Part shown: positions 32,630 to 55,694 of the stretch, piece after piece
Layout of the letters: every line of letters starts with the position of its first letter
Position numbering within the stretch: the stretch's first letter is position 1
Source: a virus
IMG/VR virus record: IMGVR_UViG_3300027759_000050
Location: 32,001 to 96,000 of that record
Reading direction: 5' to 3' (one strand)
Length of the DNA: 64,000 bases
Notes under the pieces: model-generated
The model's input: the letters and a program-made list of their open reading frames with translations, nothing else
Database searches by the model: none
Told to the model about the DNA's origin: nothing
Program-made: the position numbers and the translations under genes

Positions 32630-32925
32630 GCCGACTGATTGGATAATAAGGACAGTCGGCGAAACCTCAGCTTAGCTTAAGCAGCTAGGCGATATGCGGA
32701 GTCGTTTGCATTTACGTTTTTTTACTTTTATCGACTATCTGTGTCGGGTAGCCAATTAGTTTACTCATATGTCGGTCGATTACCGTATCATCCCCATCAA
32801 AAGCATATTAGTTCTCAGTGACCGATGCCGTTAAATAACACCGATGTATCTAATATGCTTATGGTGGAGATGGAGGGAGTCGAACCCTCGTGTCGCCATC
32901 GTTTCAAAAAATCAGTTTACTACCA
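32630..32925 (-). ncRNA. ssrA: circularly permuted two-piece tmRNA: acceptor piece about 32925-32862 ending CCA, intervening segment 32861-32796, coding piece from G1 at 32795; tag (A)NDSAYRLAA
   Basis: T-arm GAGGG-TTCGACT-CCCTC and CATCTCCACCA lie UPSTREAM of GGGGATG; the acceptor stem pairs 7/7 with G3.U70; tag frame GCA AAC GAC TCC GCA TAT CGC CTA GCT GCT TAA at 32709-32677; 3' hairpin GCCGACTG...CAGTCGGC. Confidence 0.93.
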
Positions 32926-32929
32926 TTAC

Positions 32930-33022
32930 AACACACTTAGGGAGATTCTCACTCCCGTACCCACAATGTGGGAACTTAGTCTAATTGCACAGCCGAGCCA
33001 TGTCCCAGTTCATAAGTGTGTT
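32930..33022 (-). ncRNA. structured RNA in the tmRNA primary-transcript leader
   Basis: 10-bp perfect closing IR AACACACTTA/TAAGTGTGTT with internal hairpins CCCACA/TGTGGG and GGGAG/CTCCC; begins at the predicted start site of the promoter at 33031-33059. Confidence 0.55.
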
Positions 33023-33030
33023 AAGTATGT

Positions 33031-33059
33031 ATTATATCACAGGATTAGAGACTTGTCAA
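33031..33059 (-). promoter_or_regulatory. sigma70 promoter driving the leader RNA, tmRNA and possibly the OMP gene
   Basis: TTGACA-N17-TATAAT, perfect consensus. Confidence 0.9.
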
Positions 33060-33077
33060 GCCCTTCTGTGAAATGTA

Positions 33078-33842
33078 TTATCCCAGCGTGCCGAGTCTGG
33101 TGCCTGTTGTTAACCAATTGATATATGCATTTGAACCGGTCGTTGTGCAATAACCAGCTGCGCCACCTGATGTACCTAGACCTGCACCGTTACTTCCAGC
33201 AGTACCTAAATTACCGCCTGAACCACCGGCCCAACCCCATCTATCATTACCGTACCCACCAAAAGAACCACCTGAACCACCTGCACCACCAGTTGTAAGT
33301 GTTCCTGCTGTTCCTGCTGTTTGGCCGTAATTCTGAGTTGAACCATTTTTATTCAATGGGCCACCAGCACCGACAATATTACCCGCGCCGCCGCCACCGC
33401 CGCCACCATAACCATCTATGCCACCATTACCACCAGCTCCGCCTCCGCCGCCACCACCACCGCCGGCGATTGTTCCATTGTTGGTAATACTTACTGAGAA
33501 GCTCGCCGTAAGTGCTGGGCCGCCCGGTCCACCGACACTGCCAGCTGAACCAGAACCGCCAATTGAACCTGTACCACCTGTGCCACCTGCACCAGCTATA
33601 GTTCCTGAATTGATTATTTCAACACGGTCACCTGTAGCAAATCCTGAGATTGTTAATGCTGGAGTGGAAATCGATGTACTTCCTATAACCACACCTGAAG
33701 GAATTATGTAAGTTACAACCGATGAACCACTAACATAATTCGGAAACATCGCCGGATTAACGGTCACATTGGTGGCACTAGATGCTGTCACCGATGCAAC
33801 TAATCGCCTCTTTGATAAGAAATAATTAAAAGAACTAAACAT
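33078..33842 (-). CDS. glycine-rich adhesin similar to T-even gp38 receptor-recognition proteins
   Basis: IINSGTIAGAGG, GGPAL, ITNNGTIAGGGGGGGGG polyglycine motifs; start revised to ATG 33842, coupled to the upstream stop. Confidence 0.7.
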   Translation of the reverse strand: MFSSFNYFLSKRRLVASVTASSATNVTVNPAMFPNYVSGSSVVTYIIPSGVVIGSTSISTPALTISGFATGDRVEIINSGTIAGAGGTGGTGSIGGSGSAGSVGGPGGPALTASFSVSITNNGTIAGGGGGGGGGAGGNGGIDGYGGGGGGGAGNIVGAGGPLNKNGSTQNYGQTAGTAGTLTTGGAGGSGGSFGGYGNDRWGWAGGSGGNLGTAGSNGAGLGTSGGAAGYCTTTGSNAYINWLTTGTRLGTLG

Positions 33843-34213
33843 TAAGCATAACCTTGAGAAAAGCTTCCATACCAATATGTTCCGTCACAAATGAATGAGA
33901 GTATGTCGTTTCTGCTGGCTGTTGTAGTTATTGTTGGTGCCGTTCCATAAGGCCATTTTACACCAGTAAAAGTTGCTGTAAAACCTCCAGCAACAGTGTA
34001 AAGCATCAGAATAAAAGAAACACCGGACGCAACAGAAGGCATTGTAAAAGTGCAACTTTGATTCAAAGTGCAAGTTTGATATGTCCCAGTTGCCAGTGAA
34101 AGTGTTTTTGATGTTCCAGAATTACCAATAGCCACGACACCTTCATTATAAGGACCACTTAGTGTTAGACCTGGTAAAGAAACTCCAGAAGTGCCATTAA
34201 TTGTAACAGGCAT
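33842..34213 (-). CDS. small fiber-tip-associated beta protein
   Basis: MPVTINGTSGV start; VKWPYGTAPTITTTASRNDILSF..DGTYWYG motif common in phage fiber C-terminal modules. Confidence 0.7.
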   Translation of the reverse strand: MPVTINGTSGVSLPGLTLSGPYNEGVVAIGNSGTSKTLSLATGTYQTCTLNQSCTFTMPSVASGVSFILMLYTVAGGFTATFTGVKWPYGTAPTITTTASRNDILSFICDGTYWYGSFSQGYA

Positions 34214-34242
34214 TTTTTACCCCCCATTTTTTGTTTATACCC

Positions 34243-34250
34243 TATTTATA
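34243..34250 (-). promoter_or_regulatory. T4-type late promoter
   Basis: perfect TATAAATA about 30 nt upstream of ATG 34213. Confidence 0.75.
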
Positions 34251-34905
34251 AGGTTGTTTTATAGAATTCAATTGCTTTCACAAGTCCCTCAATGTGGTCT
34301 TCTGTCTTTTCAATAAACACCAATGGTTCTGAACCATCTACTGCCATAAGCGTAACAATCTGGTCAACAGGTGTACCAATCATTTCTTCCAACATCAATG
34401 CATACGCAGTTTCTTGCCAAAAGTAAGACATAACCTTATCTCTACTTTTTATTCTGCTACTTGTCTTAAAGTCAATGATGGATAGTTTACCGTTCCAATG
34501 TGCAATCAAGTCAACACGACCAGCAACACCAAGTTTCTTGGAGAACAATGCACACTCTTGATACCAAATATCGGTCACATTGTCATCTATGATTGGTTTG
34601 ATACTCTTGAACATTTCCAATGCATCCGGCATAGCCTTCTTTGAATACTCTAGGTTATTGTTTAGATATGCCTCACAAATACTATGCACATTAGTGCCAC
34701 GACCAGATGCTTTGCGTGAGATTTTGTTTGCTTCTTCTTCACCAACCCGCTTGCGCCATGCAAGTATGTCAGCTTTACTTAATGCACCCAGCACGGTCGT
34801 AATAGATGGCAACCTTGTGCCATCTTCCATAACATAGTATCGACCGTCTGGGAAAGTCTCAGCCTTAATATCTTTTAGTGTAGGTACATCACAATAGTTA
34901 AACAT
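34246..34905 (-). CDS. PD-(D/E)xK exonuclease (Cas4-like fold, usual phoH neighbour)
   Basis: PSITTVL, WRKRVGEEEANKIS, RGTNVH, AGRVDLI, IIDFKTS, QETAYA. Confidence 0.88.
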   Translation of the reverse strand: MFNYCDVPTLKDIKAETFPDGRYYVMEDGTRLPSITTVLGALSKADILAWRKRVGEEEANKISRKASGRGTNVHSICEAYLNNNLEYSKKAMPDALEMFKSIKPIIDDNVTDIWYQECALFSKKLGVAGRVDLIAHWNGKLSIIDFKTSSRIKSRDKVMSYFWQETAYALMLEEMIGTPVDQIVTLMAVDGSEPLVFIEKTEDHIEGLVKAIEFYKTTL

Positions 34906-35669
34906 TATATTCCTAATTTATCGCAGGCAACAATCCATGATTTAACCAAACTGCTGCGAACAATATCGTCTGGTGTAAATCCAATTTCAGTAAACTCATT
35001 CATATGTCTCGCAACATTCAAAAACTCCGCAAGGCCTGATATATCATTCCTACTCTTAATTAGGTCATTCTGTTTCAGGTCGCCAACAAAGATAATCTTA
35101 GAACGGTGACCTACACGGGAGATAACAGAACTCAATTCGTGAAAGGTCATTGACTGACATTCATCTACAATAATGATAGAGTTATCAATAGAGATACCAC
35201 GAATAGCGGTAGTTGAAATGAATCTAGCGTAACCTTGTTCCTTTAATCTTTCCCATGCATCAGAACGACCAAAAAGTGTCTCACAAATTTCTTTGTAAGG
35301 CACTTCATAAATCTCCATCTTTTCTTCTAGTGTACCTGGAACAAAACCTTGGTCCCTTACCTGTACAGCAGAGCGAACAACTACAACATGAGTGAATGGA
35401 TTATCTTTGTTTAATACTTCTTCGATTGCACGATATAAGGCTAAAAATGTTTTACCTACACCTGGTGATCCTAATAGGCCAATAAAGTAATCACCTGTTT
35501 TGTATGCATCAAAGAACTTTTGTTGATTTTGTGTTAGTGCTTCAAATGTTTTTAAATGGTCTAATTTTATTTTTAGTGAGTTTGAAACGGGTTGATGTCT
35601 GTGTGTTGTTGAATCACCTTCAATTGAATCATCACGTTTTTGTATTGCTGTTTTTCTATTGGTTGCCAT
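34905..35669 (-). CDS. phoH: PhoH-family ATPase
   Basis: GSPGVGKTFLA, VRSAV, GFVPG, IIVDECQ, GDLKQND, DIVRSSLVK. Confidence 0.93.
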   Translation of the reverse strand: MATNRKTAIQKRDDSIEGDSTTHRHQPVSNSLKIKLDHLKTFEALTQNQQKFFDAYKTGDYFIGLLGSPGVGKTFLALYRAIEEVLNKDNPFTHVVVVRSAVQVRDQGFVPGTLEEKMEIYEVPYKEICETLFGRSDAWERLKEQGYARFISTTAIRGISIDNSIIIVDECQSMTFHELSSVISRVGHRSKIIFVGDLKQNDLIKSRNDISGLAEFLNVARHMNEFTEIGFTPDDIVRSSLVKSWIVACDKLGI

Positions 35670-35696
35670 TGAAACATCCTTGTTGTTGTTGCGGGA

Positions 35697-35852
35697 TTAT
35701 TTGGAGGTTTTTGTTATCGCAGGATCCTTCTTCAATAAAGCAGCTACTTTGGTTTGTGGGACTTTCTTGGCTTGTGCTTGATGTTTTTGTGGCTGCTTGT
35801 AGAAGCCAGTACCAAGAAGTGCAGGAATGCGATAAGGACGATTGATTACCAT
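35697..35852 (-). CDS. small basic hypothetical protein (51 aa, not in ORF track)
   Basis: ATG overlaps the end of the upstream ORF; MVINRPYRIPALLGTGFYKQ...TSK; fills the intergenic gap. Confidence 0.5.
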   Translation of the reverse strand: MVINRPYRIPALLGTGFYKQPQKHQAQAKKVPQTKVAALLKKDPAITKTSK

Positions 35853-36124
35853 TCTCTGGGCAACTTTGTCTTATGACCTGACATTGTGTTTCCTGGAATG
35901 GTTTCTTTCATGCGTTGAATGACACCACGCTCAAAGGCCATGTGAGCTTGACCAATACCAGGAACAGACATGCGAGCACCGTCTGACATAATTGGAAGAT
36001 TGTGTGCTGTGTGATAGCGTTCAAGGTGTGGATTGTTTTGAGCAAACGAATCTAGTTCCGCAATTCTCATACGGTGTTCTTCTACTTCGTTTGTATCTTT
36101 ATTTAAGAAATCATAGCTGGGCAT
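35846..36124 (-). CDS. FmdB-like small protein lacking the Cys ligands
   Basis: MPSYDFLNKDTNEVEEH...NPHLE pattern typical of T4-like phage FmdB-like proteins. Confidence 0.65.
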   Translation of the reverse strand: MPSYDFLNKDTNEVEEHRMRIAELDSFAQNNPHLERYHTAHNLPIMSDGARMSVPGIGQAHMAFERGVIQRMKETIPGNTMSGHKTKLPREW

Positions 36125-36677
36125 TATACCATCCTGGAACATTACGAGAGTTAATCTTACCACGCCATGAGGCTAGGTGCGTCTTATTATTTATATAGTA
36201 ATTGTGATAGGAGGCAATAGAATCACCGGCAATTTTTACCTCATCAGGCATTGCAGGAGTAGGTTGTGTAAAACCACTGTTCCCAATATTATGAGGAATG
36301 TTTTTAAGTAGTACATCAGCAAGTCCATCTCTTTCAACTTTATGAGTTTTGCCATAACGATAGGTGTATTCTTCACACAATGCAATCAACATGTTAGCTA
36401 ACCAAAGATAGTTTTCAATAGATTGTCTACACCAAATTGCTGATGGATGGTTAATATGAGTTGCCCGATAAAGCAAAGAATCACGATTATCAGAGAGTAT
36501 ATACGTGGTTCGTTGTCTACCAGTTGCACCTCCCCTATCAACAGTAGGGACGCCATCAAGATACCGATGGGCGGTAGAAAGTAGTTGAGCATATTCGATA
36601 ACCATTTTTGTTACATGACGATCCACATGCATTTTAGCACATTCAGCAGGATCATGGGAAAGATAAAAAATGTTAAT
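36111..36677 (-). CDS. denV: pyrimidine-dimer DNA glycosylase (DenV-like); probable ATT start at 36677
   Basis: in-frame (I)NIFYLSHDPAECAKMHVDRHVTKMVIEYAQLLSTAHR, HINHPSAIW, EYTYRYGKTH, PTPAMPD; AAGGAG 7 nt upstream of ATT. Confidence 0.85.
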   Translation of the reverse strand: MNIFYLSHDPAECAKMHVDRHVTKMVIEYAQLLSTAHRYLDGVPTVDRGGATGRQRTTYILSDNRDSLLYRATHINHPSAIWCRQSIENYLWLANMLIALCEEYTYRYGKTHKVERDGLADVLLKNIPHNIGNSGFTQPTPAMPDEVKIAGDSIASYHNYYINNKTHLASWRGKINSRNVPGWYNAQL

Positions 36678-37203
36678 TTTGTTTCTCCTTCAAAGCTTTA
36701 TAAAAATTACCAATCATAATTAATTCATCTAATGTTGCATCTTTTTTAAGTTTATTTGCTCTTACGGACATAATCATAATGTTATTTTTAATGTAACCTT
36801 TACTATTGTCAATCCTATCGATACTTGGTGCATTTTGGTTGTTTCTTCTTGTACCTGTTTCCAATTTGATGTTTAGCACCGGACAAAAATCAGGAATAAT
36901 AATGTCATCTATTTGTATGTTATGTTCAATTCCAGATACTTTAGCTCTTTGTTTTGAATTATTCAACATATGTCTAGCTGGTTCATTTTTCCAATTTTCT
37001 TTTCTTTTTTCTCTTTCTTTTTTTGCTCTTTCACTACAACAAGATTTACAATTATCACGGATTCCTTGCGAAGGATCATTTTTTATTTTATACGAAAATA
37101 GATTTTGTGTCAACCATTTTTTACAACCAACACACATAACTTTTGGTCTTGCTGTACCATGTTGATTTTTACCATTTCTGGCCATTTGCGGCATCTTTAA
37201 CAT
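36673..37203 (-). CDS. HNH/His-Cys-type homing endonuclease
   Basis: N-terminal CxxC...CxxC; IPDFCPVL, PSIDRIDNSKGYIKNNI, RANKLK; preceded by late TATAAATA at about 37234-37241. Confidence 0.8.
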   Translation of the reverse strand: MLKMPQMARNGKNQHGTARPKVMCVGCKKWLTQNLFSYKIKNDPSQGIRDNCKSCCSERAKKEREKRKENWKNEPARHMLNNSKQRAKVSGIEHNIQIDDIIIPDFCPVLNIKLETGTRRNNQNAPSIDRIDNSKGYIKNNIMIMSVRANKLKKDATLDELIMIGNFYKALKEKQN

Positions 37204-37263
37204 AAATCCTCCTGTGCATATTCTTATATATTATATTTATAAAAAAAGAATATGCTAGAATAT

Positions 37264-37518
37264 TCATAATTGAATTTGTATCCGTGGCACTTCTTGCCAA
37301 ATTCCATGTAGTTTAATATTGCCGTATTGGTCATGTGTATGCATACAAACTTGTAAAGCAACCTTATCTATTTTTCCATCTTTCATATATTCAGCCACCC
37401 GAAACTCATAACTGATTGGTTCGGGGATTGTAACAGACCAACTTGGTGAAGGTGGCGGTGGAGGTGGTGGAAAAGGTGTTAGCTGGTTAACAGTGAATGT
37501 ATTTGTCGTTAATATCAT
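37264..37518 (-). CDS. hypothetical protein with poly-Pro tract
   Basis: ORF in frame with the operon; PFPPPPPPPSP; YEFRVAE. Confidence 0.6.
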   Translation of the reverse strand: MILTTNTFTVNQLTPFPPPPPPPSPSWSVTIPEPISYEFRVAEYMKDGKIDKVALQVCMHTHDQYGNIKLHGIWQEVPRIQIQL

Positions 37519-37793
37519 AGTACCATTCTTAATAGTCCGATAAAGTCGATGGTGACCAATAGGCAATAATTAGCGAGCATACCAAAGGAACGCCGACTAT
37601 AAGCGCACCCAGCGTAAATAAAACAACCTGTAATCCAAACTGGGTACAAGAAAAGAAGGGGAGGATTAGGCACGGTGAGGGCCATAGTGATAGAACAACC
37701 AATAGATATAGCCCAAGCAAGGACCTCAAAACAAAAACGTATTCTATTACTTTTGTAATCATTACCAATCCATTTTAGAATGTTACTCATCAA
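37515..37793 (-). CDS. small integral membrane protein
   Basis: about three hydrophobic helices; overlaps neighbours in ATGA style. Confidence 0.7.
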   Translation of the reverse strand: MMSNILKWIGNDYKSNRIRFCFEVLAWAISIGCSITMALTVPNPPLLFLYPVWITGCFIYAGCAYSRRSFGMLANYCLLVTIDFIGLLRMVL

Positions 37794-38055
37794 ATACTGT
37801 AGACCATTTTTTTAGTTTGTGAATTTTGTTTTCTTGTGCTTCAAGCACCTTGACAGGATTAATAATTTTCAAATCGTAGCAAATGTAAACCATAGCCATT
37901 AGGTCACCTATTTCTTCTTCTAGGTGTTCACGATTAGTTTTAGTTGTATTTGGCTTGATGTTATCGAGGCCAAACCTAAAACATTTACTAATCGCTTGTA
38001 TTACCTCTGCACATTCTTCTTGTGCAATTAACAATACTTCTCGGTTATTATCCAT
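37783..38055 (-). CDS. MazG-like NTP pyrophosphohydrolase
   Basis: EECAEVIQAISK and LEEEIGDL acidic motifs. Confidence 0.8.
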   Translation of the reverse strand: MDNNREVLLIAQEECAEVIQAISKCFRFGLDNIKPNTTKTNREHLEEEIGDLMAMVYICYDLKIINPVKVLEAQENKIHKLKKWSTVFDE

Positions 38056-38375
38056 TATTCAAGACTCGCTGCGCCGCCAGCAACACTCATACCTTGTTTT
38101 GGTGGCCGACCTGGACCACGGCGTTCTTCTTGCGGTTGCATTTTTTGAATTCGTGCTGCAATATCTTCAGGTGATACTGTTTGTAGTGCAAATTGCAAAA
38201 ACATAGCATAAGAATCTGTAACTTTCATGGAGTTTTTACCACCAACAGCCGCAGCATCAGGGAAAAACAGATTACAACCACCTTCACGGAGTGGTGCAAT
38301 TTCTAGAATTGAATCTAGATTGATAATTACTTTGGTGTTTTTTTCAACAGAAAATACTTCGATAAATGTGCTCAT
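38055..38375 (-). CDS. hypothetical protein with C-terminal AT-hook-like motif
   Basis: RRGPGRPPK near the C-terminus. Confidence 0.7.
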   Translation of the reverse strand: MSTFIEVFSVEKNTKVIINLDSILEIAPLREGGCNLFFPDAAAVGGKNSMKVTDSYAMFLQFALQTVSPEDIAARIQKMQPQEERRGPGRPPKQGMSVAGGAASLE

Positions 38376-38407
38376 AATATTCTTTCAGGTTAGTGGTTGG
38401 GTTGTAT

Positions 38408-38587
38408 TTATTCGTCTTTATTCTTAGCATTCACACCCATCATATGTCGTTCGGATGTATCTGCTGCGTACTGAGCTTGAATCATGTTTTTCTTAAAAGC
38501 ATTTCGCTGTTCCTCAGTTTTGAAAGGTAACAGAGCAATCATAGTTTTATTTTTTTTCGACAGTTTAAAAGTGGAAGGGGTTTTCAT
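38408..38587 (-). CDS. small basic hypothetical protein (59 aa, not in ORF track)
   Basis: SD AGGA; MKTPSTFKLSKKNKTMIALL...RNAFKKNMIQAQ. Confidence 0.6.
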   Translation of the reverse strand: MKTPSTFKLSKKNKTMIALLPFKTEEQRNAFKKNMIQAQYAADTSERHMMGVNAKNKDE

Positions 38588-38822
38588 ATAATCCTAAAAA
38601 GTTATTAACAAAATACAGTATAACACAAAGACACATGATTGTCAAGGTCTTATATCCTAGGGATACCATTTCATCACGGTAATAATCAACTTCTAATTCC
38701 AAGAAGTCTCTTTGGCCTAGAAGCATAGGTTGACATTCATCCTCACCACCCATCATTAGGATAGTTTTTTTGGCTTCACGCAACCTATTCTTTGCCTCAA
38801 AATAATTAAATATAGATTTCAT
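38565..38822 (-). CDS. hypothetical membrane protein
   Basis: 85 aa with a C-terminal TM helix. Confidence 0.65.
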   Translation of the reverse strand: MKSIFNYFEAKNRLREAKKTILMMGGEDECQPMLLGQRDFLELEVDYYRDEMVSLGYKTLTIMCLCVILYFVNNFLGLYENPFHF

Positions 38823-41595: not shown

Positions 41596-41597
41596 TT

Positions 41598-48739: not shown

Positions 48740-48942
48740 TCTTCGATTTCCTCATTCCACATTCTTACAGGCATATAACCCATTGAGCTGTTTAACCAGT
48801 AATCAACTTCCGATTGGGGCATTCCTTCTGCGACCAACCATTTATAGAATTCATTTCCGACTAATGCTTCATCAGGCATTGCTTTTGGGAATCCCCATTT
48901 CCAACCACTTGGTGGGTCACATATAGTTACAGTTTTTTTCAT
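48736..48942 (-). CDS. hypothetical protein
   Basis: DPPSGWKWGFPK motif. Confidence 0.7.
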   Translation of the reverse strand: MKKTVTICDPPSGWKWGFPKAMPDEALVGNEFYKWLVAEGMPQSEVDYWLNSSMGYMPVRMWNEEIEE

Positions 48943-49186
48943 ATATTATCCTTATACTGAGTAAATAAAGTCCCTGTAGACACCATAGCGGCGTATCAGA
49001 ATCGTAATTAAAACGCCTATGGTCAGTTCCAATGCGAACAAAACCGCTAGTATGGTGCCTAAAATTATCATTTTTTAGTAGTCATTTCGACCATCCAAGT
49101 CCTAAAATCACGGCGAGATATATTGGTTATAGGTATACCAGCCGTCTTACAGAAATGGTAAGCATCAAGATAAAATCCAAACTCTT

Positions 49187-49702: not shown

Positions 49703-49724
49703 AATAATTCCTTAAAATATAAAA

Positions 49725-49916
49725 TTAACGATTACACAATTCACAGTCAGCACCATCAGGGCCAACCTTTACTTCGTCATACCATGACAAGTCCATCCCA
49801 TCAGTTAGCATGAAATCGACACGAGCTTGTGCTAATTCTGCTGTGGGATAAACACCAAAGATATAACTCTCAGGGCATCCCCGGGTCTCTGCACGGACAA
49901 TAAAAATTGAAGTCAT
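49725..49916 (-). CDS. hypothetical protein
   Basis: SD AGGA; IFGVYPTAELA. Confidence 0.65.
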   Translation of the reverse strand: MTSIFIVRAETRGCPESYIFGVYPTAELAQARVDFMLTDGMDLSWYDEVKVGPDGADCELCNR

Positions 49917-49925
49917 AATAATCCT

Positions 49926-50174
49926 TTAACCAAAAATCTGAGCGTCCATCTCTTGGACTTGTAACTCTTTAGTGGTGTGGTCGATAATCTCCCAAATACC
50001 ACCTTTGACCGGCAAGGCCATCACAATATCATGCGAATAGACCGAACCCATTTCAGTGTAATAACCTTCTACCTCGACCATACGGGTCGTACCGCGTTGG
50101 TTATCCATCATAGTACCGTACCAGCCATTACGCATACGGACACGCATACCTTTTTTAATATCAGCAGTTTTCAT
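49926..50174 (-). CDS. hypothetical protein
   Basis: ATGA-coupled; EVEGYYTEMGSVYSHDI. Confidence 0.7.
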   Translation of the reverse strand: MKTADIKKGMRVRMRNGWYGTMMDNQRGTTRMVEVEGYYTEMGSVYSHDIVMALPVKGGIWEIIDHTTKELQVQEMDAQIFG

Positions 50175-50398
50175 TCTTTGACTCCAAAGTGTTCCATTAT
50201 AACATCAGACGATATGCCATAAGGTTCATCATTCCTTATACATTCATAATTGTATTTTCTCACCAATTTGGCACATTCCCACACAATCAACTCGGCGAAC
50301 TTGTTCAACTGTGCTGGCAATAATTTATCAGTTGCAGGGTTATCCCAATATTCTTCTGCCCAAATTTTATCAGCAAGTTCTTGGATTCGTTCGTTCAT
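50171..50398 (-). CDS. hypothetical protein, paralog of 45437..45649
   Basis: shared MNERI and KFAELIV motifs, also similar at DNA level. Confidence 0.75.
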   Translation of the reverse strand: MNERIQELADKIWAEEYWDNPATDKLLPAQLNKFAELIVWECAKLVRKYNYECIRNDEPYGISSDVIMEHFGVKE

Positions 50399-50487
50399 AT
50401 CAAGGTTCCAATAACATTCGTATAGTAATCAATATTACACACACTACAATGATCCAGGCTTGTGTTTCTGTCATCATTCATTACCTC

Positions 50488-51015
50488 TTACTTGTTATCA
50501 ACCACAACAAACTCGGTGATGCCATACTTTTTGGTCAGAAATGCTTTTGCAGCATCGACAGTAGGACGGGCCGCTTCAGATTTACCACCGAACCAGGCCA
50601 TATACTTTTGACGGTCTGCACGGAACACGATAGTACCATCTGCAAAGGTTTCTTTAGTAGATACTTTTGCTACCTTGACAGTCTTAGGTGCTTTCGGCGC
50701 TTTAGCAGGTTTTGCTACCTTGACAGGTTTGGTACCAGTGATATCCATACCTACAGAATCCATCAATTCTACAACGGACACTTCCTTGGTCGCTTTTGGT
50801 GTCAGCACCTTGACAGGACCACGCCACGGTAGGAAACCGAGAGCACCAGTCTTACCTTTGGCTTGCATCACATCTTCCATGAGATACTCGCAGCGTGACC
50901 ATTCCTGGGACTCGGCATCGAACCAGCGATACGGAGTGCCGAGTTTCTCACCACGGTCGACCACATACAAGCCAGAGTGAACAGGATTAACACCAGAATT
51001 AAATACTTTTTCCAT
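50488..51015 (-). CDS. early protein with K/A/P-rich histone-like linker
   Basis: SD GAGG; KPVKVAKPAKAPKAPKTVKVAK. Confidence 0.75.
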   Translation of the reverse strand: MEKVFNSGVNPVHSGLYVVDRGEKLGTPYRWFDAESQEWSRCEYLMEDVMQAKGKTGALGFLPWRGPVKVLTPKATKEVSVVELMDSVGMDITGTKPVKVAKPAKAPKAPKTVKVAKVSTKETFADGTIVFRADRQKYMAWFGGKSEAARPTVDAAKAFLTKKYGITEFVVVDNK

Positions 51016-51043
51016 AATTACCTCTATCAACAAATCAAACTAT

Positions 51044-51096
51044 ATTATAACAGAATCCAACGGATATGTCAAGCACACTGTTGTTTTTATACAACA
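51044..51096 (-). promoter_or_regulatory. sigma70 early promoter with TGTTG-N8-CAACA palindrome
   Basis: TTGACA-N17-TATAAT; TGTTGTTTTTATACAACA at 51079-51096. Confidence 0.85.
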
Positions 51097-51336
51097 TCAA
51101 TATTCATATGCCGAGAAAGCAACAGCATTCTGCTTCAGGCAGGTAGACTGACGGCAGGTACCGTTCCGATTAGGAAACGCATCGGCAGGAGTATTACGAG
51201 GACCACGGTATCGCAGTTTGTAATATTTACCAGTGATTTTAGATATTTCCCGAAATACAGGAAGATATTTAATTGGGATATTAGAATATTCAGCCCGTGC
51301 CGAGTAATTAGCAAAAGAATTAAAAGATATTTTCAT
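51097..51336 (-). CDS. hypothetical protein
   Basis: NIPIKYL, LRYRGPR, STCLKQNA. Confidence 0.7.
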   Translation of the reverse strand: MKISFNSFANYSARAEYSNIPIKYLPVFREISKITGKYYKLRYRGPRNTPADAFPNRNGTCRQSTCLKQNAVAFSAYEY

Positions 51337-51360
51337 GATAATATAATAATTAAATAATAA

Positions 51361-52110
51361 TTATGCCGCTTTGAGCATAATTGAAGGGTATTTTACGAAA
51401 CCAGAGGTATCTTTTTTCGCTTTACCTTTTGCATAGAGACCGACCACAGAGTTTGCAGGGTCCAGAAAACGCAGGTCCGATTCATCGCCGTTAAATACAG
51501 GCATAAATTTATAGGTTTCAGGCATTGCTGAACCTTTTTTGATACCGAATACCACAGCAATATTATAACCTTGGGTCATCGCCGACATTACATCAGCATC
51601 ATTACCATCAGCAGCAGAAAATGTCAGGTGATAATTAGCAATATTATTTACTTTACGACCTAGCACCTTGGTGTAGTCATAGAATTGGACATTAGGAAAT
51701 GCCGCGAAAATATTGATATATGTCACACCGTCTACCTCGACAGTATATTTTTCCCATGATATATCAGAGGTACCATTGAGGCGGAACACAGGAACCAGAC
51801 CTTGTTTCGCTGCCTGCTTGATTGCTAATTTAATATCAGCGACCAACCACTCAAAGAAACCAGCACGCTCTTCGTAGAAAAACACCGTTTTGCGAATCCG
51901 TGCCTTTTGAATAACATTGGTATTTTCACCTTTTTTGAACATACCGCCGCGACCGGCAGTATTCAAGCAGGCAGCAATACAACCTGCCGTTGCTTTGGGG
52001 CAAGTATTATGTCCTGATAATGTAGCAGGAGCAAGGTGCAGAATATAGGTCATATAACCTTGAGTCATACCCTTGAGCGTTTTGGGATTACCGACTGATA
52101 ATAATTTCAT
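51361..52110 (-). CDS. GP88-family (radical-SAM-like Cys-motif) protein
   Basis: LHLAPA, CPKATAGCIAACLNTAGRG, FRLNGTSDI, QFYDYTK, YHLTFS, GDESDLRFLD, GLYAKGKA. Confidence 0.75.
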   Translation of the reverse strand: MKLLSVGNPKTLKGMTQGYMTYILHLAPATLSGHNTCPKATAGCIAACLNTAGRGGMFKKGENTNVIQKARIRKTVFFYEERAGFFEWLVADIKLAIKQAAKQGLVPVFRLNGTSDISWEKYTVEVDGVTYINIFAAFPNVQFYDYTKVLGRKVNNIANYHLTFSAADGNDADVMSAMTQGYNIAVVFGIKKGSAMPETYKFMPVFNGDESDLRFLDPANSVVGLYAKGKAKKDTSGFVKYPSIMLKAA

Positions 52111-52113
52111 AAT

Positions 52114-52323
52114 TTACTCCACAGAAACAAAAATATCAACTACAGAGGACAAAAGCATCGACATTTCATAGTCGCCATTATTATCATCTTCGCATTCTGC
52201 CACCAATTCGAATTCGTTTAGAGCATCATAGATTAAATCTAATTGCTCTTGCGTGAATAATTGTTGCAACATTGCTTGCTGTTCTGCTTTTGTCATTTTG
52301 TTACTTTCAGTATCGTTTAACAT
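52114..52323 (-). CDS. small acidic early protein, probably leaderless (ATG 52323)
   Basis: ATG 7 nt after TATAAT; no SD. Confidence 0.65.
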   Translation of the reverse strand: MLNDTESNKMTKAEQQAMLQQLFTQEQLDLIYDALNEFELVAECEDDNNGDYEMSMLLSSVVDIFVSVE

Positions 52324-52330
52324 GAGTGCC

Positions 52331-52372
52331 ATTATACACGAATCCTAGGATTTGTCAAGCAACCTTAGTTGC
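52331..52372 (-). promoter_or_regulatory. sigma70 promoter with GCAAC-N4-GTTGC palindrome abutting the -35
   Basis: TTGACA-N16-TATAAT; GCAACTAAGGTTGC identical to the copy at 54174. Confidence 0.85.
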
Positions 52373-52579
52373 GATCCGGTCTTTCTTTACAGAATGATCC
52401 GAAAATACAGAATAAACTCCGTCGGGGGTAATAAATTTCCGCAATTTATGGTTATATTGACCATCCGATACTTTAGTATAACCGTATTGTGGGTGCTGCA
52501 AACGAATATCATCCGTTTTCAACATAAACAGGACATTTTTATATCCGTTATAAACGGCACAGTTTGCAATAATTTTCAT
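52355..52579 (-). CDS. hypothetical early protein ending in IATKVA
   Basis: the stop TGA lies inside the downstream -35 TTGACA. Confidence 0.65.
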   Translation of the reverse strand: MKIIANCAVYNGYKNVLFMLKTDDIRLQHPQYGYTKVSDGQYNHKLRKFITPDGVYSVFSDHSVKKDRIATKVA

Positions 52580-52845
52580 TTTGGACTAATTCCGACTACC
52601 ATATTCATAGTAGAAAAAGATATATTAACCAGAAGCATATTACGGTCGTTCAATGCTGCTTCGATTTTATTCACAATATTATCCTTGAATTGTTGCTCTT
52701 CAAAGGATAGATTATGCCGCGCTTCATGGAGATGGGTATAACCATTATTATCAAAAGTAAATGGTACCAAATATACCTCTTTTGATCCACCTGCGGTAGT
52801 ACCATTCAGCAGTCTCCGAGAATTAAATAATATTTTATTCGCCAT
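52576..52845 (-). CDS. hypothetical early protein
   Basis: SD AGGT; ATGA coupling. Confidence 0.65.
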   Translation of the reverse strand: MANKILFNSRRLLNGTTAGGSKEVYLVPFTFDNNGYTHLHEARHNLSFEEQQFKDNIVNKIEAALNDRNMLLVNISFSTMNMVVGISPK

Positions 52846-52872
52846 AATATCTACCTTTACAGTCCAGACTAA

Positions 52873-53046
52873 TCAATATTCCGCCAGCATTTCATACTCC
52901 GATACCACAGTATCAAAAGCATCCTGCTCAGTAGCAGTTAAGCCCGCATATTCCAGTTCCATTGTTTCAATAGCGTCCATAAATGATTCGCATTTATTAG
53001 AGTAACCGAAGCGAGAAACTACCGCCATTGCTTGTCCGAATGTCAT
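52873..53046 (-). CDS. small acidic early protein (57 aa, not in ORF track)
   Basis: SD AAGG; MTFGQAMAVVSRFGY...EYEMLAEY. Confidence 0.6.
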   Translation of the reverse strand: MTFGQAMAVVSRFGYSNKCESFMDAIETMELEYAGLTATEQDAFDTVVSEYEMLAEY

Positions 53047-53063
53047 AATATAACCTTTTCCAA

Positions 53064-53336
53064 TTAAACCGTTATTAAATAATAATCTTTGATAATACGA
53101 ATAGCATCCTGAATATTATCAGCAGCATTATACAACCAACCAGTTTGAGTATCACCCAAATCAATATTAGAATGATATACTGATATTCCACCAGTTTTCA
53201 TATTATGCACAAATTTACCGATTAGTTTAGAACCATCGAATAAATTATAAGTATAATATTCGGGGTCAGTATCAGCAGTAAATTTGCTAGATTCAGCAAT
53301 AATATAAAAATTGCGCGCGGTAGTATCGTTTTTCAT
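53064..53336 (-). CDS. early protein, probably leaderless (ATG 53336)
   Basis: TATAAT-GGCACCT-ATG geometry. Confidence 0.7.
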   Translation of the reverse strand: MKNDTTARNFYIIAESSKFTADTDPEYYTYNLFDGSKLIGKFVHNMKTGGISVYHSNIDLGDTQTGWLYNAADNIQDAIRIIKDYYLITV

Positions 53337-53343
53337 AGGTGCC

Positions 53344-53875
53344 ATTATACAGGTGCCATAGAGGATTGTCAAGCACTCATAGTTGCGATCCTAGGATTAT
53401 TGTGCAATATAGTGCATTTTTGTGTCATAAAAACAACAGCCCGCAGGATATGTCGCATTATCATGTAAATGAGAATGATTCTCATCCATATTGTCGCATC
53501 CAGAACATTTTAGCGGAGTTTAGTCTGTGTGTCCGATTTTCCTGTGAATAATCCAGCATTATATCAGAAAATCCGAAGGTTGTCAAGCGTTTTCCGCACA
53601 ATTTTCGCATATTTTTCGCTATTGCTTCGAGGTTCTTCATAGATAAAAACTATCGCGGGTCTCTGAGATGCTCTGAGAATATATCAACCACTCTCCACGT
53701 CCATCCCGCTCATTGCTTCGAATCATGCGTCCATTATACCAGAACCCCTGAGCATTGTCAAGCCCTCCTGCCTATTGTATTCCTCTATCAGCCTCTGAGG
53801 TCTCATAGAGGGACTCTATCGATTCGCCCACAGTCGGTGTGCCTCCATCCTATCACAATCCAGAGCCCCTGTCAA
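53344..53875 (-). promoter_or_regulatory. four tandem leftward sigma70 promoters (53344-53372, 53558-53586, 53733-53761, 53847-53875)
   Basis: TTGACA-N17-TATAAT three times and TTGACA-N17-TAGGAT once, with no substantial ORF between them. Confidence 0.85.
53469..53485. promoter_or_regulatory. Fur-box-like operator
   Basis: ATGAGAAT-G-ATTCTCAT perfect 8-1-8 palindrome matching the 7-1-7 Fur motif variant TGAGAAT-N-ATTCTCA. Confidence 0.7.
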
Positions 53876-53885
53876 GCCCCAGCTG

Positions 53886-53975
53886 GACACTACCTGGCCA
53901 CCTGTTTTTTCGGATAGCTTCGAAAAGCTGCAGCTTTCCGCTGGTTTTGACGGAATCAGGTGGCCAGGTAGTGTC
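53886..53975. repeat. 90-bp nested dyad at the early-transcription divergence point
   Basis: 19-bp perfect IR GACACTACCTGGCCACCTG (53886-53904 and 53957-53975) and 14-bp palindrome AAAGCTGCAGCTTT (53924-53937) share one axis (53930/53931). Confidence 0.95.
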
Positions 53976-53985
53976 TCACCATTTC

Positions 53986-54037
53986 GCAACCATTGTTGTG
54001 ATTTTTCGCTTGACAATCCCACTGGTTCTGGTATAAT
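53986..54037 (+). promoter_or_regulatory. first rightward sigma70 promoter with GCAAC-N4-GTTG box
   Basis: GCAACCATTGTTG at 53986; TTGACA(54010)-N16-TATAAT(54032). Confidence 0.85.
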
Positions 54038-54044
54038 GGCACCT

Positions 54045-54191
54045 ATGAAAACGACACACCCTACACCACCAGCCACAGGATGCGACACCGGCCTTTGCCA
54101 GGACTATGATAGTGGATTGGCCCGCTGGTTCTCCAGCCGGTTGGGTGCTCTCTATTATTTGAGACTCCATTTCGCAACTAAGGTTGCTTGA
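54045..54191 (+). CDS. leaderless 48-aa early protein (not in ORF track)
   Basis: ATG 7 nt after TATAAT; MKTTHPTPPATGCDTGLCQDYDSGLARWFSSRL...FATKVA; stop lies within the next -35. Confidence 0.65.
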   Translation: MKTTHPTPPATGCDTGLCQDYDSGLARWFSSRLGALYYLRLHFATKVA

Positions 54192-54216
54192 CATTCCTAC
54201 CAATCCATTGTATAAT
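54174..54216 (+). promoter_or_regulatory. sigma70 promoter cassette
   Basis: GCAACTAAGGTTGC-TTGACA-N17-TATAAT-GGCACC...AAACGAAAC. Confidence 0.88.
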
Positions 54217-54246
54217 GGCACCACTTAAACGAAACAAGGACGCAAA

Positions 54247-54558
54247 ATGATAATCTCCGAATATGATGCTCTGCAAAGCTACGACGAAATGCTGGATGAC
54301 GTATACCCTGAGGTTACTCTGGGCTTCTCCTCCTTCCTGCCTTCCCGTGTGCTGAAGGAAATGGACCGTACGGCCTACAATGAGGGTTTCCATGACTATG
54401 TAAATTCTATGGCTGACGACGGCACCTACGTTGAAGGCTACACCGATGACCTGGAAGAATCCGTCGATGATTCTATGGACGGTGACCACGATTCGGCCAT
54501 GGCCTCTGCGGGCTTTGGTACGGATGAGGATTATGGTTCTTTTGGTAATGAGGAATAA
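54247..54558 (+). CDS. highly acidic early protein
   Basis: SD AGGA; YDEMLDDVY...VLKEMD and SMDGDHDSAMASAGFGTDEDY. Confidence 0.8.
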   Translation: MIISEYDALQSYDEMLDDVYPEVTLGFSSFLPSRVLKEMDRTAYNEGFHDYVNSMADDGTYVEGYTDDLEESVDDSMDGDHDSAMASAGFGTDEDYGSFGNEE

Positions 54559-54559
54559 A

Positions 54560-54688
54560 ATGAAATTTTTAATTGGTATGGCTTTTGGTATCATAGTGGC
54601 TACGGTTGGTTTTACTGGCTTTGCTCAGTTGGCCGACCATGGTCTGGTCAAGGTCAAGGCTGCGGCCACTGAGGTGATTGCCAAATAG
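54560..54688 (+). CDS. small membrane protein; start revised to 54560
   Basis: SD GAGG; MKFLIGMAFGIIVATVGFTG. Confidence 0.7.
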   Translation: MKFLIGMAFGIIVATVGFTGFAQLADHGLVKVKAAATEVIAK

Positions 54689-54697
54689 TTCCAAATC

Positions 54698-54739
54698 GCA
54701 ACTATAGGTTGTGACAGGAAAGACCAACTCTGGTATAAT
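54698..54739 (+). promoter_or_regulatory. sigma70 promoter cassette
   Basis: GCAACTATAGGTT-GTGACA-N17-TATAAT; flanks repeated at 55932-55993. Confidence 0.82.
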
Positions 54740-54760
54740 GGCACCATCTAAACGAAACAA

Positions 54761-54846
54761 GGTTGATCCAAAAAGCAAGACACGCAAAACGGAACCCACG
54801 CGAAAGCAAAAAGGGAACCACGCAAAAAGTCAAGCACGGATCAACC
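54761..54846 (+). ncRNA. stem-closed, U-depleted repetitive leader RNA
   Basis: 9-bp IR GGTTGATCC/GGATCAACC enclosing 68 nt with a single T and three CACGCRAAA units. Confidence 0.5.
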
Positions 54847-54866
54847 ACCTAATTTAAGGACTCCAA

Positions 54867-55235
54867 ATGACCGAAATGACCCGCACCGAAGAGCTTCAAT
54901 CCATCCACTGGGATATGTACAAGGACGCTCATGGCTTCCGTCCTCGCCATGTAAATACCCTCCACTGGACCGAGGAAATGTTCTTGGCTGAATTTGAGGC
55001 TCTCGAGCTGGTCATCCGCCAAGAGGAGCTGCAGCGTGCCTTCGCTGAAGGTAAAGCCGCTGCTCGCTTCGAGGCTCGCGTGGATGACCTGATGGCCACT
55101 GGTGCTAAGGATGCCGAGACGGCCATCCGTTGGATCATGGACGCCGAAGGCGCTAATGGCGACCAAGGCTTCGCTGAGTACCTGCTGGGCCTGCCCTACG
55201 GTTACATTACCAAATTCGCAACCAAAGTTGCTTGA
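54867..55235 (+). CDS. conserved phage early protein ending in FATKVA
   Basis: SD AAGGA; WDMYKDAHGFRPR, GAKDAETAIRW, LGLPYGY. Confidence 0.85.
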   Translation: MTEMTRTEELQSIHWDMYKDAHGFRPRHVNTLHWTEEMFLAEFEALELVIRQEELQRAFAEGKAAARFEARVDDLMATGAKDAETAIRWIMDAEGANGDQGFAEYLLGLPYGYITKFATKVA

Positions 55236-55260
55236 CTTTTCTCTCAACCGGGTGTATAAT
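55218..55260 (+). promoter_or_regulatory. sigma70 promoter cassette
   Basis: GCAACCAAAGTTGC-TTGACT-N17-TATAAT. Confidence 0.85.
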
Positions 55261-55293
55261 ACATCCATCGTAAACAAAAAAGGAAACTTTAAA

Positions 55294-55563
55294 ATGGCTA
55301 AATCAAAATCTTTTCTCGGTTCTGCTCTCGCACTCAAGCGTGAAGCTCTGAAGGCTCTCAAAGCTGAAGTCGCTCAAATGGCTAAACAATATGCTCATGA
55401 GCGTTTCGCTATCAAGCAAGATAAATTGGTTATGGCTGCTGCGCGCAAGGAAGCTGCTATCGCAAAAGCGAAAGCTAAACTGGAAAAGCTGACTGCTCCA
55501 GTCGGTGCGAAAGCTCTCAAAGCGAATCGCAAACCATCCGCAGTTATTGTGACCAAGGGCTGA
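55294..55563 (+). CDS. very basic K/A-rich early protein (possible nucleic-acid binder); start revised to 55294
   Basis: SD AGGA; ARKEAAIAKAKAKLEKL...VGAKALKANRKPS. Confidence 0.8.
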   Translation: MAKSKSFLGSALALKREALKALKAEVAQMAKQYAHERFAIKQDKLVMAAARKEAAIAKAKAKLEKLTAPVGAKALKANRKPSAVIVTKG

Positions 55564-55596
55564 TTATATCACAAGGGGCTTGCTTTGTCAAGCCCC
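55563..55596 (-). promoter_or_regulatory. antisense sigma70 promoter overlapping a GC hairpin
   Basis: minus-strand TTGACA-N17-TATAAT (55591-55563); hairpin GGGGCTTG...CAAGCCCC. Confidence 0.7.
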
Positions 55597-55694
55597 CATA
55601 TAGAAGCATACTGCTTGCCTGACCGAAAAAGTCGTGGTAAACTATAAGAGAAAGAGGTTCGAATCCTCGGGACTGGTAGTGTGCTTCTATATGG
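55596..55694 (+). ncRNA. stem-closed RNA carrying a tRNA-like T-arm
   Basis: closing stem CCATATAGAAGCATACT/AGTGTGCTTCTATATGG (17 bp, one G.U); inside are TGGTAAA and GAGG-TTCGAAT-CCTC. Confidence 0.6.

What the first reader, a model, noticed from the sequence alone, without database searches (positions are those of the whole stretch)
32796..55694. Family of RNA cassettes sharing one closing-stem motif but carrying different cargo
Seen: three separate non-coding inserts of about 60-100 nt are closed by 10-17-bp stems with a common core ARCAYAYT...ARTRTGYT. They are the tmRNA intervening segment (AAGCATATTAG/CTAATATGCTT, 32801-32860), the tmRNA leader (AACACACTTA/TAAGTGTGTT, 32930-33022) and the early-region element (TAGAAGCATACT/AGTGTGCTTCTA, about 55601-55689). 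The differences between stems are compensatory or G.U, and the enclosed sequences are unrelated. Inference: a standard processing or recognition helix releases, protects or circularises diverse small RNAs, i.e. a modular small-RNA expression system. Its presence as the tmRNA intervening segment hints at a link to the permutation.
Basis: partly seen in the sequence, partly recalled or inferred. Interest (0 to 1): 0.75.

Follow-up and report, generated by a model that had tools for sequence, protein, structure and literature searches.

The report
Stem-clamped small RNA cassettes in phage
The three hairpin-closed inserts are real members of a large, apparently undescribed, phage-only family of small RNAs that all share one conserved ~19-base-pair closing helix but carry over a hundred unrelated folded interiors, and that sit between tRNA genes or inside and in front of the phage's two-piece tmRNA gene.

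Summary
Observation confirmed. Derived from this window alone, the motif recovers more than 300 cassettes in other phage contigs, against 0-5 in shuffles.

The family has a 17-21 bp helix, which I call P1. Its consensus is 5' ACCAUAUWAAAACAYAUU paired with 3' ARUGUGUUUCWAUAUGGU. G.U pairs are valid only on the tRNA-sense strand. P1 begins at the NCCA end of the upstream tRNA or tmRNA acceptor piece and often ends at the 5' end of the next RNA. It encloses about 160 unrelated cargo types.

- Element 3 (55596-55694) is a strongly covarying cargo type with a T-arm. In a distant phage the same cargo is the tmRNA intervening segment.
- Close relatives differ by presence or absence of cassettes and by cargo swaps between conserved arms.
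- No Rfam family matches and I found no paper. Cellular genomes hold it only on short, likely phage, tRNA-array contigs.

Best reading: small RNAs excised from tRNA/tmRNA precursors and end-protected by P1. Release is inferred, not shown. A link to the tmRNA permutation is not supported.

A Ro60-like protein lies in the phage's tRNA array, but it tracks a different RNA handle (the CAGC-box), not P1.

This scan noted the same family earlier on other DNA (e1-5367156, e1-5698094).

The parts
32796..32862 (-). tmRNA intervening segment, which is a P1-type cassette. The closing stem pairs 32850-32860 with 32801-32811 (11 bp). The 38-nt cargo is unique to this phage.
   Evidence: (z = -5.2). Relatives carry other cargos in the same slot behind a similar stem.
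32930..33022 (-). tmRNA leader cassette. A 10-11 bp P1-type stem encloses a three-hairpin cargo. It starts 1-3 nt after the predicted transcription start and ends 5 nt before the acceptor piece.
   Evidence: Two stem positions change CG to UA in the L008/L075 lineage. The cassette is always found upstream of this tmRNA type.
55596..55694 (+). T-arm cassette (element 3). It has a 20-bp P1, hairpin H1 with a 7-nt loop, a conserved linker, a T-arm-like hairpin GAGG-UUCGAAU-CCUC, and an invariant GGGAC.
   Evidence: z = -6.2; 16 of 28 pairs show compensatory changes; 117.7 bits. It is absent from the same site in a 93%-identical relative.
32863..32924 (-). tmRNA acceptor piece, ending in CCA at 32865-32863.
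   Evidence: Rfam RF04321 and RF01850 alignments.
32620..32795 (-). tmRNA coding piece. Its 5' GGGG is at 32795-32792 and the tag is ANDSAYRLAA.
33031..33059 (-). Consensus sigma-70 promoter TTGACA-17-TATAAT (with TG extension) that drives the leader and tmRNA.
   Evidence: Read from the sequence. The same GGGCTTGACA context is conserved in L005 and L073.

Best explanation
The three elements are stem-clamped small-RNA cassettes embedded in stable-RNA precursors.

Each cassette is transcribed as part of a tRNA-array, tmRNA or, for element 3, early-mRNA transcript. Its conserved 17-21 bp terminal helix (P1) pairs the sequence starting at the NCCA 3' end of the upstream RNA with the sequence just before the 5' end of the downstream RNA. 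In some cases the pairing includes the first nucleotides of that downstream RNA.

The nucleases that mature the neighbours would therefore free the cassette as a roughly tRNA-sized hairpin-closed RNA. These would be RNase P at the downstream 5' end, and a post-CCA endonuclease (RNase E or BN type) or RNase III within P1 at the upstream end. P1 would then shield both ends of the cassette, and the variable cargo would be the working part.

In the tmRNA gene, one such cassette is the segment that must be removed to make the two pieces. A second cassette is the leader in front of the acceptor piece.

Shown: the family exists, selection acts at the RNA level, cassettes sit at mature ends, cargo is diverse and exchanged, and at least one cargo has a covarying structure.

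Inferred: excision, end protection, and that cargos have functions of their own.
For: - Helix consensus. With one representative for each of 38 cargo clusters, three pairs are invariant. An A.C mismatch (C on the 3' arm) recurs in 20/38 and a U.G wobble in 23/38. Outside that position there are 58 G.U against 18 A.C pairs.
- Orientation. The G.U-defined sense strand equals the tRNA strand in 156 cases and opposes it in 30.
- Position. 17 of 35 helices start inside the upstream NCCA, and 10 of 35 end at or inside the first nucleotides of the next tRNA.
- Motif-free check. Of 910 inter-tRNA spacers, 146 have a terminal helix of at least 13 bp starting at NCCA, and 89 of those carry the P1 core.
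- Cargo diversity. There are 163 cargo clusters among 280 distinct cassettes. Median cargo is 49 nt and median P1 is 19 bp.
- Cargo structure. The T-arm cargo covaries in P1, H1 and the T-arm. The type-B cargo has one compensatory change.
- Shared cargo across slots. The T-arm cargo is the tmRNA intervening segment in L013, L044 and L047, but lies between genes here. The cargo in the L012/L014 intervening segment also occurs outside a tmRNA, in L039.
- Own genome. It has three more cassettes between tRNAs: Gln/Ser, Glu/Lys and Leu/Asp.
Against: - No transcript ends were observed, so release and stability are untested.
- A 20-bp helix that sequesters the CCA and the RNase P leader could hinder tRNA maturation rather than help it.
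- Element 3 has no flanking stable RNA, so tRNA-processing enzymes cannot define its ends there.
- The acceptor-piece 5' end behind the leader cassette is not an RNase P site.
- Strong sequence conservation in P1 is not explained by a purely structural clamp. It suggests an unidentified sequence-specific partner.
- Most cargo clusters (134 of 163) are singletons, so their structure is untested.
- The loci were ascertained with P1 or T-arm patterns, which inflates apparent prevalence within the loci.
Confidence: 0.55

Rival explanations
1. P1 is only a processing or insulating device for the neighbouring tRNAs and tmRNA pieces. For example, it could be an RNase III site like the stems flanking 16S/23S rRNA or the T7 early RNase III sites. 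On this reading the cargo is dispensable filler that drifts.
For: P1 is about 19-20 bp, the size of an RNase III substrate. It spans exactly from one mature end to the next. Most cargo types are singletons. The window's intervening-segment cargo occurs nowhere else. A second helix family with a different sequence occupies the same NCCA-to-UGGU position.
Against: Filler loops would be expected to shrink, yet the median cargo is 49 nt. Several cargos are conserved across many contigs: the T-arm type occurs in 56 contigs with compensatory changes. Most inter-tRNA spacers in the same arrays need no such helix (764 of 910). Element 3 lies in an mRNA with no RNA to release.
Confidence: 0.2
2. The cassettes are selfish, mobile or recombining DNA modules, like MITEs or integron cassettes. 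Their inverted termini would be recognised or recombined at the DNA level.
For: Presence/absence differs between phages of 92-93% identity. At the tRNA-Gln slot, different cargos lie between conserved arms. The same cargo appears in three kinds of genomic slot. An extra cassette in L003 is flanked by TTTT on both sides. An HNH endonuclease gene lies in the array.
Against: Pairs are strand-specific (G.U far more common than A.C) and orientation follows the tRNAs. The cargo covaries at the RNA level. There is no consistent target-site duplication at the element 3 site or the Leu/Asp site. No transposase or integron-type core sites were seen. Exchange by homologous recombination at the arms is compatible with an RNA function and needs no dedicated mobility.
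Confidence: 0.1
3. P1 cassettes are Y-RNA-like partners of the Ro60-like protein encoded in the phage's tRNA array. P1 would be the Ro-binding helix and the T-arm cargo a YrlA-like tRNA mimic.
For: A 476-aa DUF2828/DUF7788 protein lies in the array. Its model (pLDDT 92.8) matches Ro60/TROVE structures as the top 13 PDB hits, with TM 0.56-0.62. A terminal helix with a variable module is the Y-RNA plan (PMC4201824). Among large contigs, those with the T-arm cassette carry the gene in 8 of 12 cases and those without it in 2 of 19.
Against: Of 31 large P1-bearing genomes, 21 lack the gene, including 8 of 10 complete ones. Only 1 of 80 Ro-like loci has a T-arm cassette within 6 kb. A different handle, UUAG-N5-GUWCAGCAA...CUGUU, tracks the gene: 9 of 10 Ro-positive against 3 of 21 Ro-negative genomes, with three tandem copies just upstream of the gene here. 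P1 lacks the GNCGAAN0-1G / GGUCCGA motif.
Confidence: 0.1
4. The resemblance of the three stems is coincidence among unrelated hairpins.
For: The motif was defined after the fact. Only 5 hits against 1.1 expected occur in this genome, and one hit is inside an ORF.
Against: The motif generalises to hundreds of cassettes in other phages, against 0-5 in shuffles. The leader's 3' arm and flank also match the family consensus beyond the core, up to AUGGUA.
Confidence: 0.01

Closest known systems
Bacterial and phage Y RNAs (YrlA/YrlB, Yrn1) bound by Ro60/Rsr (Chen et al. 2014, PMC4201824)
   Same: The 5' and 3' ends pair into a long terminal helix and the variable module lies distal to it. Some members carry a tRNA-like T-arm. 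They are roughly tRNA-sized and occur in phages. A Ro60-like gene lies in the same array.
   Different: P1 has no GNCGAAN0-1G / GGUCCGA motif. The cassettes are not adjacent to the Ro-like gene and occur in many genomes without one. Element 3 has no D-arm mimic. The helix sequence itself is the conserved part across more than 100 cargos. The cassette starts at a tRNA CCA end.
Precursor processing stems cut by RNase III (stems flanking 16S/23S rRNA; T7 early-region R sites). From my own knowledge, not tested here.
   Same: A helix of about 20 bp formed by sequences flanking an RNA that is to be released from a polycistronic precursor. Element 3 sits between early genes, as a T7 R site does.
   Different: Here one conserved helix sequence flanks many small unrelated RNAs. 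The helix incorporates the neighbour's CCA end. No cleavage data exist, and the phage encodes no RNase III.
Large ornate RNAs of phage tRNA arrays (GOLLD, ROOL) and the small stable RNAs of the T4 tRNA cluster. The T4 RNAs are cited from my own knowledge.
   Same: Non-tRNA structured RNAs co-transcribed with phage tRNAs. A GOLLD RNA in L020 is directly followed by a CCACCA end and a P1 cassette.
   Different: Those are single families with their own folds. They have no shared closing helix and no modular cargo.
Intervening segments of two-piece (permuted) tmRNA genes
   Same: The window's stem 1 is such a segment: it lies between the acceptor-piece CCA and the RNase P site of the coding piece.
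   Different: In these phages the segment is a slot filled by interchangeable P1 cassettes, including cargos also found in tRNA arrays. In L003 and L024 it even holds small ORFs.
MITE-like elements transcribed into RNase III-sensitive hairpins (Neisseria Correia elements). Cited from my own knowledge.
   Same: Short elements with inverted termini, variably present between relatives, forming long RNA hairpins.
   Different: P1 cassettes are strand-specific and orientation-locked, lack target duplications, and have unrelated, structured interiors.

Membership tests
Two-piece (permuted) tmRNA (context of stems 1 and 2) | Acceptor piece with a T-arm and CCA lies upstream of a coding piece with a tag reading frame, matching the permuted covariance models | tested here: met
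   RF04321 scores 99.7 bits against a gathering cut-off of 47. RF01850 scores 80.1 bits, just under its cut-off of 84. ARAGORN calls a permuted tmRNA with tag ANDSAYRLAA.
Y RNA / YrlA | Terminal helix formed by the 5' and 3' ends | tested here: met
   P1 is 17-21 bp with covariation.
Y RNA / YrlA | Ro-binding motif GNCGAAN0-1G (bacteria) or GGUCCGA (animals) in the 5' strand of the helix | tested here: not met
   The P1 5' strand consensus is ACCAUAUWAAAACAYAUU and contains no such motif. The motif is as defined in PMC4201824.
Y RNA / YrlA | tRNA-like domain with both T- and D-arm mimics | tested here: inconclusive
   Element 3 has a covarying T-arm-like hairpin with a UUCGAAU loop but no recognisable D-arm. 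Only about 6 of 163 cargo types have any T-arm.
Y RNA / YrlA | Encoded next to a Ro60 (TROVE) gene | tested here: not met
   The Pfam TROVE model is absent. The divergent Ro60-like gene is 44 kb from element 3. Only 1 of 80 Ro-like loci has a T-arm cassette within 6 kb, and 21 of 31 P1-bearing genomes lack the gene.
Y RNA / YrlA | Match to a curated covariance model | tested here: not met
   No Rfam 15 family reached E <= 10 on element 3 apart from a 14-bit RAGATH-19 match. Nothing matched the leader.
RNase III processing stem | About two turns of double-stranded RNA flanking the RNA to be released | tested here: met
   Median P1 is 19 bp, and it spans from one mature end to the next.
RNase III processing stem | Cleavage by RNase III giving 2-nt 3' overhangs | not testable with these tools
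   No RNA-end data are available. The phage encodes no RNase III or dsRBD protein.
MITE / terminal-inverted-repeat mobile element | Insertion in either orientation, with target-site duplication | tested here: not met
   Orientation follows the tRNA strand, 156 against 30. There is no consistent duplication at the filled and empty sites compared.
Known self-cleaving ribozymes or other Rfam families (as cargo) | Match to an Rfam model | tested here: not met
   In 131 kb of cassette-rich loci only tRNA, permuted tmRNA and one GOLLD RNA reached the gathering scores.

The most novel reading that the evidence does not exclude
P1 is a universal 'socket' that large freshwater phages use to express a combinatorial library of small structured RNAs from their tRNA/tmRNA operons. 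These RNAs might be aptamer-like decoys or regulators aimed at host factors or defences. The conserved arms would also serve as recombination points, so that cargos are traded between slots and between phages. That would make the system an RNA-gene analogue of integron cassettes, recognised by an as yet unidentified sequence-specific factor.
Probability: 0.25. Interest if true: 0.9.

Novelty: new variant of a known kind. Interest (0 to 1): 0.8.

Why it matters
If the cassettes are released as stable RNAs, phage tRNA arrays are also operons for a hidden repertoire of more than a hundred structured small RNA classes, all built on one socket.

- Annotation. Many 'spacers' and odd tRNA-like calls in phage tRNA arrays could be annotated with a simple sequence rule.
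- tmRNA. The rule explains what fills the intervening segment and leader of phage two-piece tmRNA genes.
- Experiments. It gives experimenters a defined helix to mutate and a set of conserved cargos, the T-arm cargo first, for which to seek partners.
- Ro60. It separates two RNA systems that share these arrays. The P1 cassettes are independent of the Ro60-like protein, whereas the CAGC-box RNAs travel with it.

Tried and rejected
- Nucleotide search of both regions against cultured phage records found no match.
- Rfam at permissive thresholds on element 3, the leader and the region upstream of the Ro-like gene gave nothing meaningful.
- I looked in the phage for TROVE, RNase III, RtcB, CCA-adding enzyme and dsRBD domains. 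None was found.
- P1 as the handle of the Ro60-like protein: considered seriously, then down-weighted.
- A Y-RNA-like element with GGUCCG plus a T-arm upstream of the Ro-like gene is present here and in L212, but is not general (3 of 70 loci).
- The covariance model of the T-arm cassette did not recover the window's intervening-segment or leader cassettes. It hit only the L005 intervening segment, weakly (25.9 bits). The three window cargos are therefore not homologous.
- Window 6043-6105 is rejected as a member. It is inside an ORF and has no folding signal.
- One pattern search was wasted on a wrong spacer length and repeated correctly.
- Literature searches found no description. The library holds open-access papers only, so this is not proof of novelty.
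- Reading the 5' arm as a T4-type late promoter (TATAAATA-like) was rejected, because the common UAUUGAAAC variant breaks it.


Full report
**Context.** The window is bases 32001-96000 of a 160,679-bp IMG/VR phage genome with direct terminal repeats. On the minus strand outside the window the genome has 28 tRNA genes at 130.5-138.4 kb. Inside the window it has one permuted tmRNA. The tmRNA is of the betaproteobacterial two-piece type: RF04321 scores 99.7 bits, RF01850 scores 80.1 bits, and the tag is ANDSAYRLAA. A consensus promoter (TTGACA-17-TATAAT, minus strand, 33059-33031) lies about 95 nt upstream of the acceptor piece.

**The observation.** All three stems are present as described. Folding z-scores are -5.2 for the intervening segment with the acceptor stem, -2.8 for the leader, and -6.2 for element 3 on the plus strand. 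Two G.U pairs fix the strand of element 3. Because the motif was derived from these very stems, that number alone proves little.

**Relatives.**
- A neighbouring protein led to 12 related loci.
- L005-7 keep the leader cassette.
- L008 and L075 keep it with two CG-to-UA compensatory changes in the closing stem.
- L003 and L004 have a second, unrelated cassette inserted between leader and tmRNA, closed by AACACTATA/TATAGTGTT.
- Every relative has a different intervening segment behind a similar stem that starts 2 nt after the CCA.
- The intervening segment of the distant L013 is homologous, stem and cargo, to window element 3.
- A 93%-identical relative (L002) has the same two flanking genes and the same upstream hairpin but no element 3.

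**The T-arm cassette.** A pattern from the shared cargo hit 56 IMG/VR contigs. In most of them the cassette directly follows a tRNA, its helix beginning with that tRNA's CCA, and precedes the next tRNA. In three contigs it is a tmRNA intervening segment. An alignment of 41 distinct copies gives 28 consensus pairs, 16 of them with compensatory changes, in the closing helix, in hairpin H1 and in the T-arm-like hairpin. A covariance model built from it scores window element 3 at 117.7 bits.

**One helix, many cargos.**
- Scanning the fetched loci for the core plus pairing found 141 hairpins in 687 kb, against 0-5 in ten shuffles.
- These fell into 47 cargo clusters.
- In 1.7 Mb from 173 loci there are 315 cassettes, 280 of them distinct, in 163 cargo clusters. 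Median cargo is 49 nt and median helix 19 bp.
- With one representative per cargo cluster, the helix consensus is 5' ACCAUAUWAAAACAYAUU paired with 3' ARUGUGUUUCWAUAUGGU. Three pairs are invariant, an A.C mismatch recurs in 20/38 and a U.G wobble in 23/38. Elsewhere G.U outnumbers A.C by 58 to 18.
- The G.U-defined sense strand equals the tRNA strand in 156 cases against 30.
- 17 of 35 helices start inside the upstream NCCA, and 10 of 35 end at or inside the first nucleotides of the downstream tRNA.
- A motif-free test found a terminal helix of at least 13 bp in 146 of 910 inter-tRNA spacers. Of these, 89 have the P1 core. The rest are P1 variants or a second family beginning ACCAUUUGUUU.

The three window elements fit this consensus. 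For the leader the fit extends to its 3' flank, GUGUGUU-GUAAUGGUA.

**This phage's own array.** Three further P1 cassettes lie between tRNA-Gln/Ser, tRNA-Glu/Lys and tRNA-Leu/Asp, at genome 136481-136582, 135918-135999 and 135170-135255. I aligned the array with that of the 92%-identical phage G001.
- The Leu/Asp cassette is absent there; the two tRNAs are 6 nt apart.
- At the Gln slot the two phages carry different cargos between homologous arms.
- A 502-nt stretch carrying an HNH endonuclease ORF is present only here.

**Distribution and novelty.**
- The strict helix pattern occurs in only five stretches on four contigs among 185,579 cellular genomes. All are tRNA arrays on short contigs, most labelled MAGs, and so are likely phage.
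- Rfam 15 recognises only tRNAs, a permuted tmRNA and one GOLLD RNA in 131 kb of cassette-rich loci.
- That GOLLD RNA ends in CCACCA and is followed by a P1 cassette.
- Literature searches found no description.
- Earlier notes of this scan describe the same family in other genomes.

**The Ro60 lead.** Inside the array is a 476-aa DUF2828/DUF7788 protein. Its AlphaFold model (pLDDT 92.8, pTM 0.92) has Ro60/TROVE structures as its 13 best PDB matches (E 2e-8 to 6e-6, TM 0.56-0.62). It has a conserved MIDAS motif. In 80 IMG/VR loci the gene is embedded in tRNA arrays, and all 955 neighbouring tRNAs are on its strand.

This suggested that P1 might be a Ro handle, but the tests speak against it.
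- 21 of 31 large P1-bearing genomes lack the gene, including 8 of 10 complete ones, and none has a canonical TROVE match.
- Only 1 of 80 Ro-like loci has a T-arm cassette nearby.
- A different handle, UUAG-N5-GUWCAGCAA...CUGUU, stands in three tandem copies just upstream of the gene here. It is found in 9 of 10 Ro-positive genomes against 3 of 21 Ro-negative ones. This agrees with earlier scan notes on a 'CAGC-box' family.

P1 cassettes are thus a separate system sharing the same arrays.

**Mechanism.** The helix brackets exactly the stretch between one mature 3' end and the next mature 5' end. It is selected as RNA on the sense strand and encloses conserved, structured cargos. The most economical reading is therefore a small RNA excised by the neighbours' maturation nucleases and clamped at both ends by P1.

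The tmRNA intervening segment and an inter-tRNA spacer are topologically the same slot: a CCA end, then an RNase P site. That explains why the same cassettes occur in both. It also removes the need for any causal link to the permutation.

Several things remain unexplained. These are the strong sequence conservation of P1, which suggests a sequence-specific partner, how element 3 and the leader are trimmed where no tRNA end is present, and what any cargo does. I put 0.55 on the excised, clamped small-RNA reading and 0.2 on a pure processing or insulator role. I put 0.1 each on DNA-level mobility and on a Ro60 partnership.

Noticed in passing
outside the window: genome 130860-132290, minus strand (L202:861-2291:-): A 476-aa DUF2828/DUF7788 protein inside the tRNA array folds as a Ro60-like TROVE+vWA protein; its top 13 PDB matches are all Ro60/TROVE. 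In 80 IMG/VR loci the gene sits in tRNA arrays, always on the tRNA strand.
   Followed up: yes
outside the window: genome about 132290-132670 and 134320-134337, minus strand (L202:2290-2672): A third cassette type, UUAG-N5-GUWCAGCAA ... CUGUU ('CAGC-box'), has covarying 7-nt stems. Three tandem copies lie behind their own promoter just upstream of the Ro60-like gene. It co-occurs with that gene (9/10 against 3/21 genomes). The first copy carries GGUCCG plus a T-arm-like hairpin. There is a weak Rfam hit to Dictyostelium Class I RNA (16.6 bits).
   Followed up: partly
window 55563-55591, minus strand: A perfect TTGACA-17-TATAAT promoter with TG extension points back into the end of the plus-strand gene 55102-55563. 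Its -35 element lies in the hairpin GGGGCTTG...CAAGCCCC that abuts element 3. It is conserved in L002, which lacks the cassette.
   Followed up: no
L003:~2725-2800 and L024 (minus strand) ~7800-7990: The tmRNA intervening segments of two relatives contain small ORFs with Shine-Dalgarno sequences, of about 22 and 60 codons, both ending ...SL*. These are protein-coding 'cargo' inside a tmRNA gene.
   Followed up: no
outside the window: genome ~135330-135840 (L202:5336-5830:-): An HNH endonuclease ORF sits between tRNA-Lys and tRNA-Leu. It is a 502-nt insertion absent from the 92%-identical phage G001, which suggests homing-driven mosaicism of the array.
   Followed up: partly
L020:1768-2233: A GOLLD RNA (201 bits) lies inside a phage tRNA array. 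It ends in CCACCA and is immediately followed by a P1 cassette.
   Followed up: partly
loci L143, L214, L215, L220, L222 and others: A second family of terminal helices occupies the same NCCA-to-UGGU position. Its sequence differs (ACCAUUUGUUUAGUGUUAUCA / UGAUAACACUAAACAAAUGGU) and its spacers are about 160 nt.
   Followed up: no
outside the window: genome 132826-132928, minus strand: The Phe-to-Leu spacer folds as a tRNA-like RNA with a 7-bp acceptor stem, a canonical T-arm and ACCA. ARAGORN does not call it; it may be a non-canonical tRNA.
   Followed up: no
window 53886-53975: The longest inverted repeat of the window has 22-nt arms, 95% complementary, with a 46-nt loop. It lies among the divergent early promoters and is not of P1 type.
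   Followed up: no
outside the window: L202:3400-3888:- and L202:7514-7993:-: An RNaseH_like (PF04308) protein and a cytidine/dCMP deaminase are also encoded within the tRNA array.
   Followed up: no
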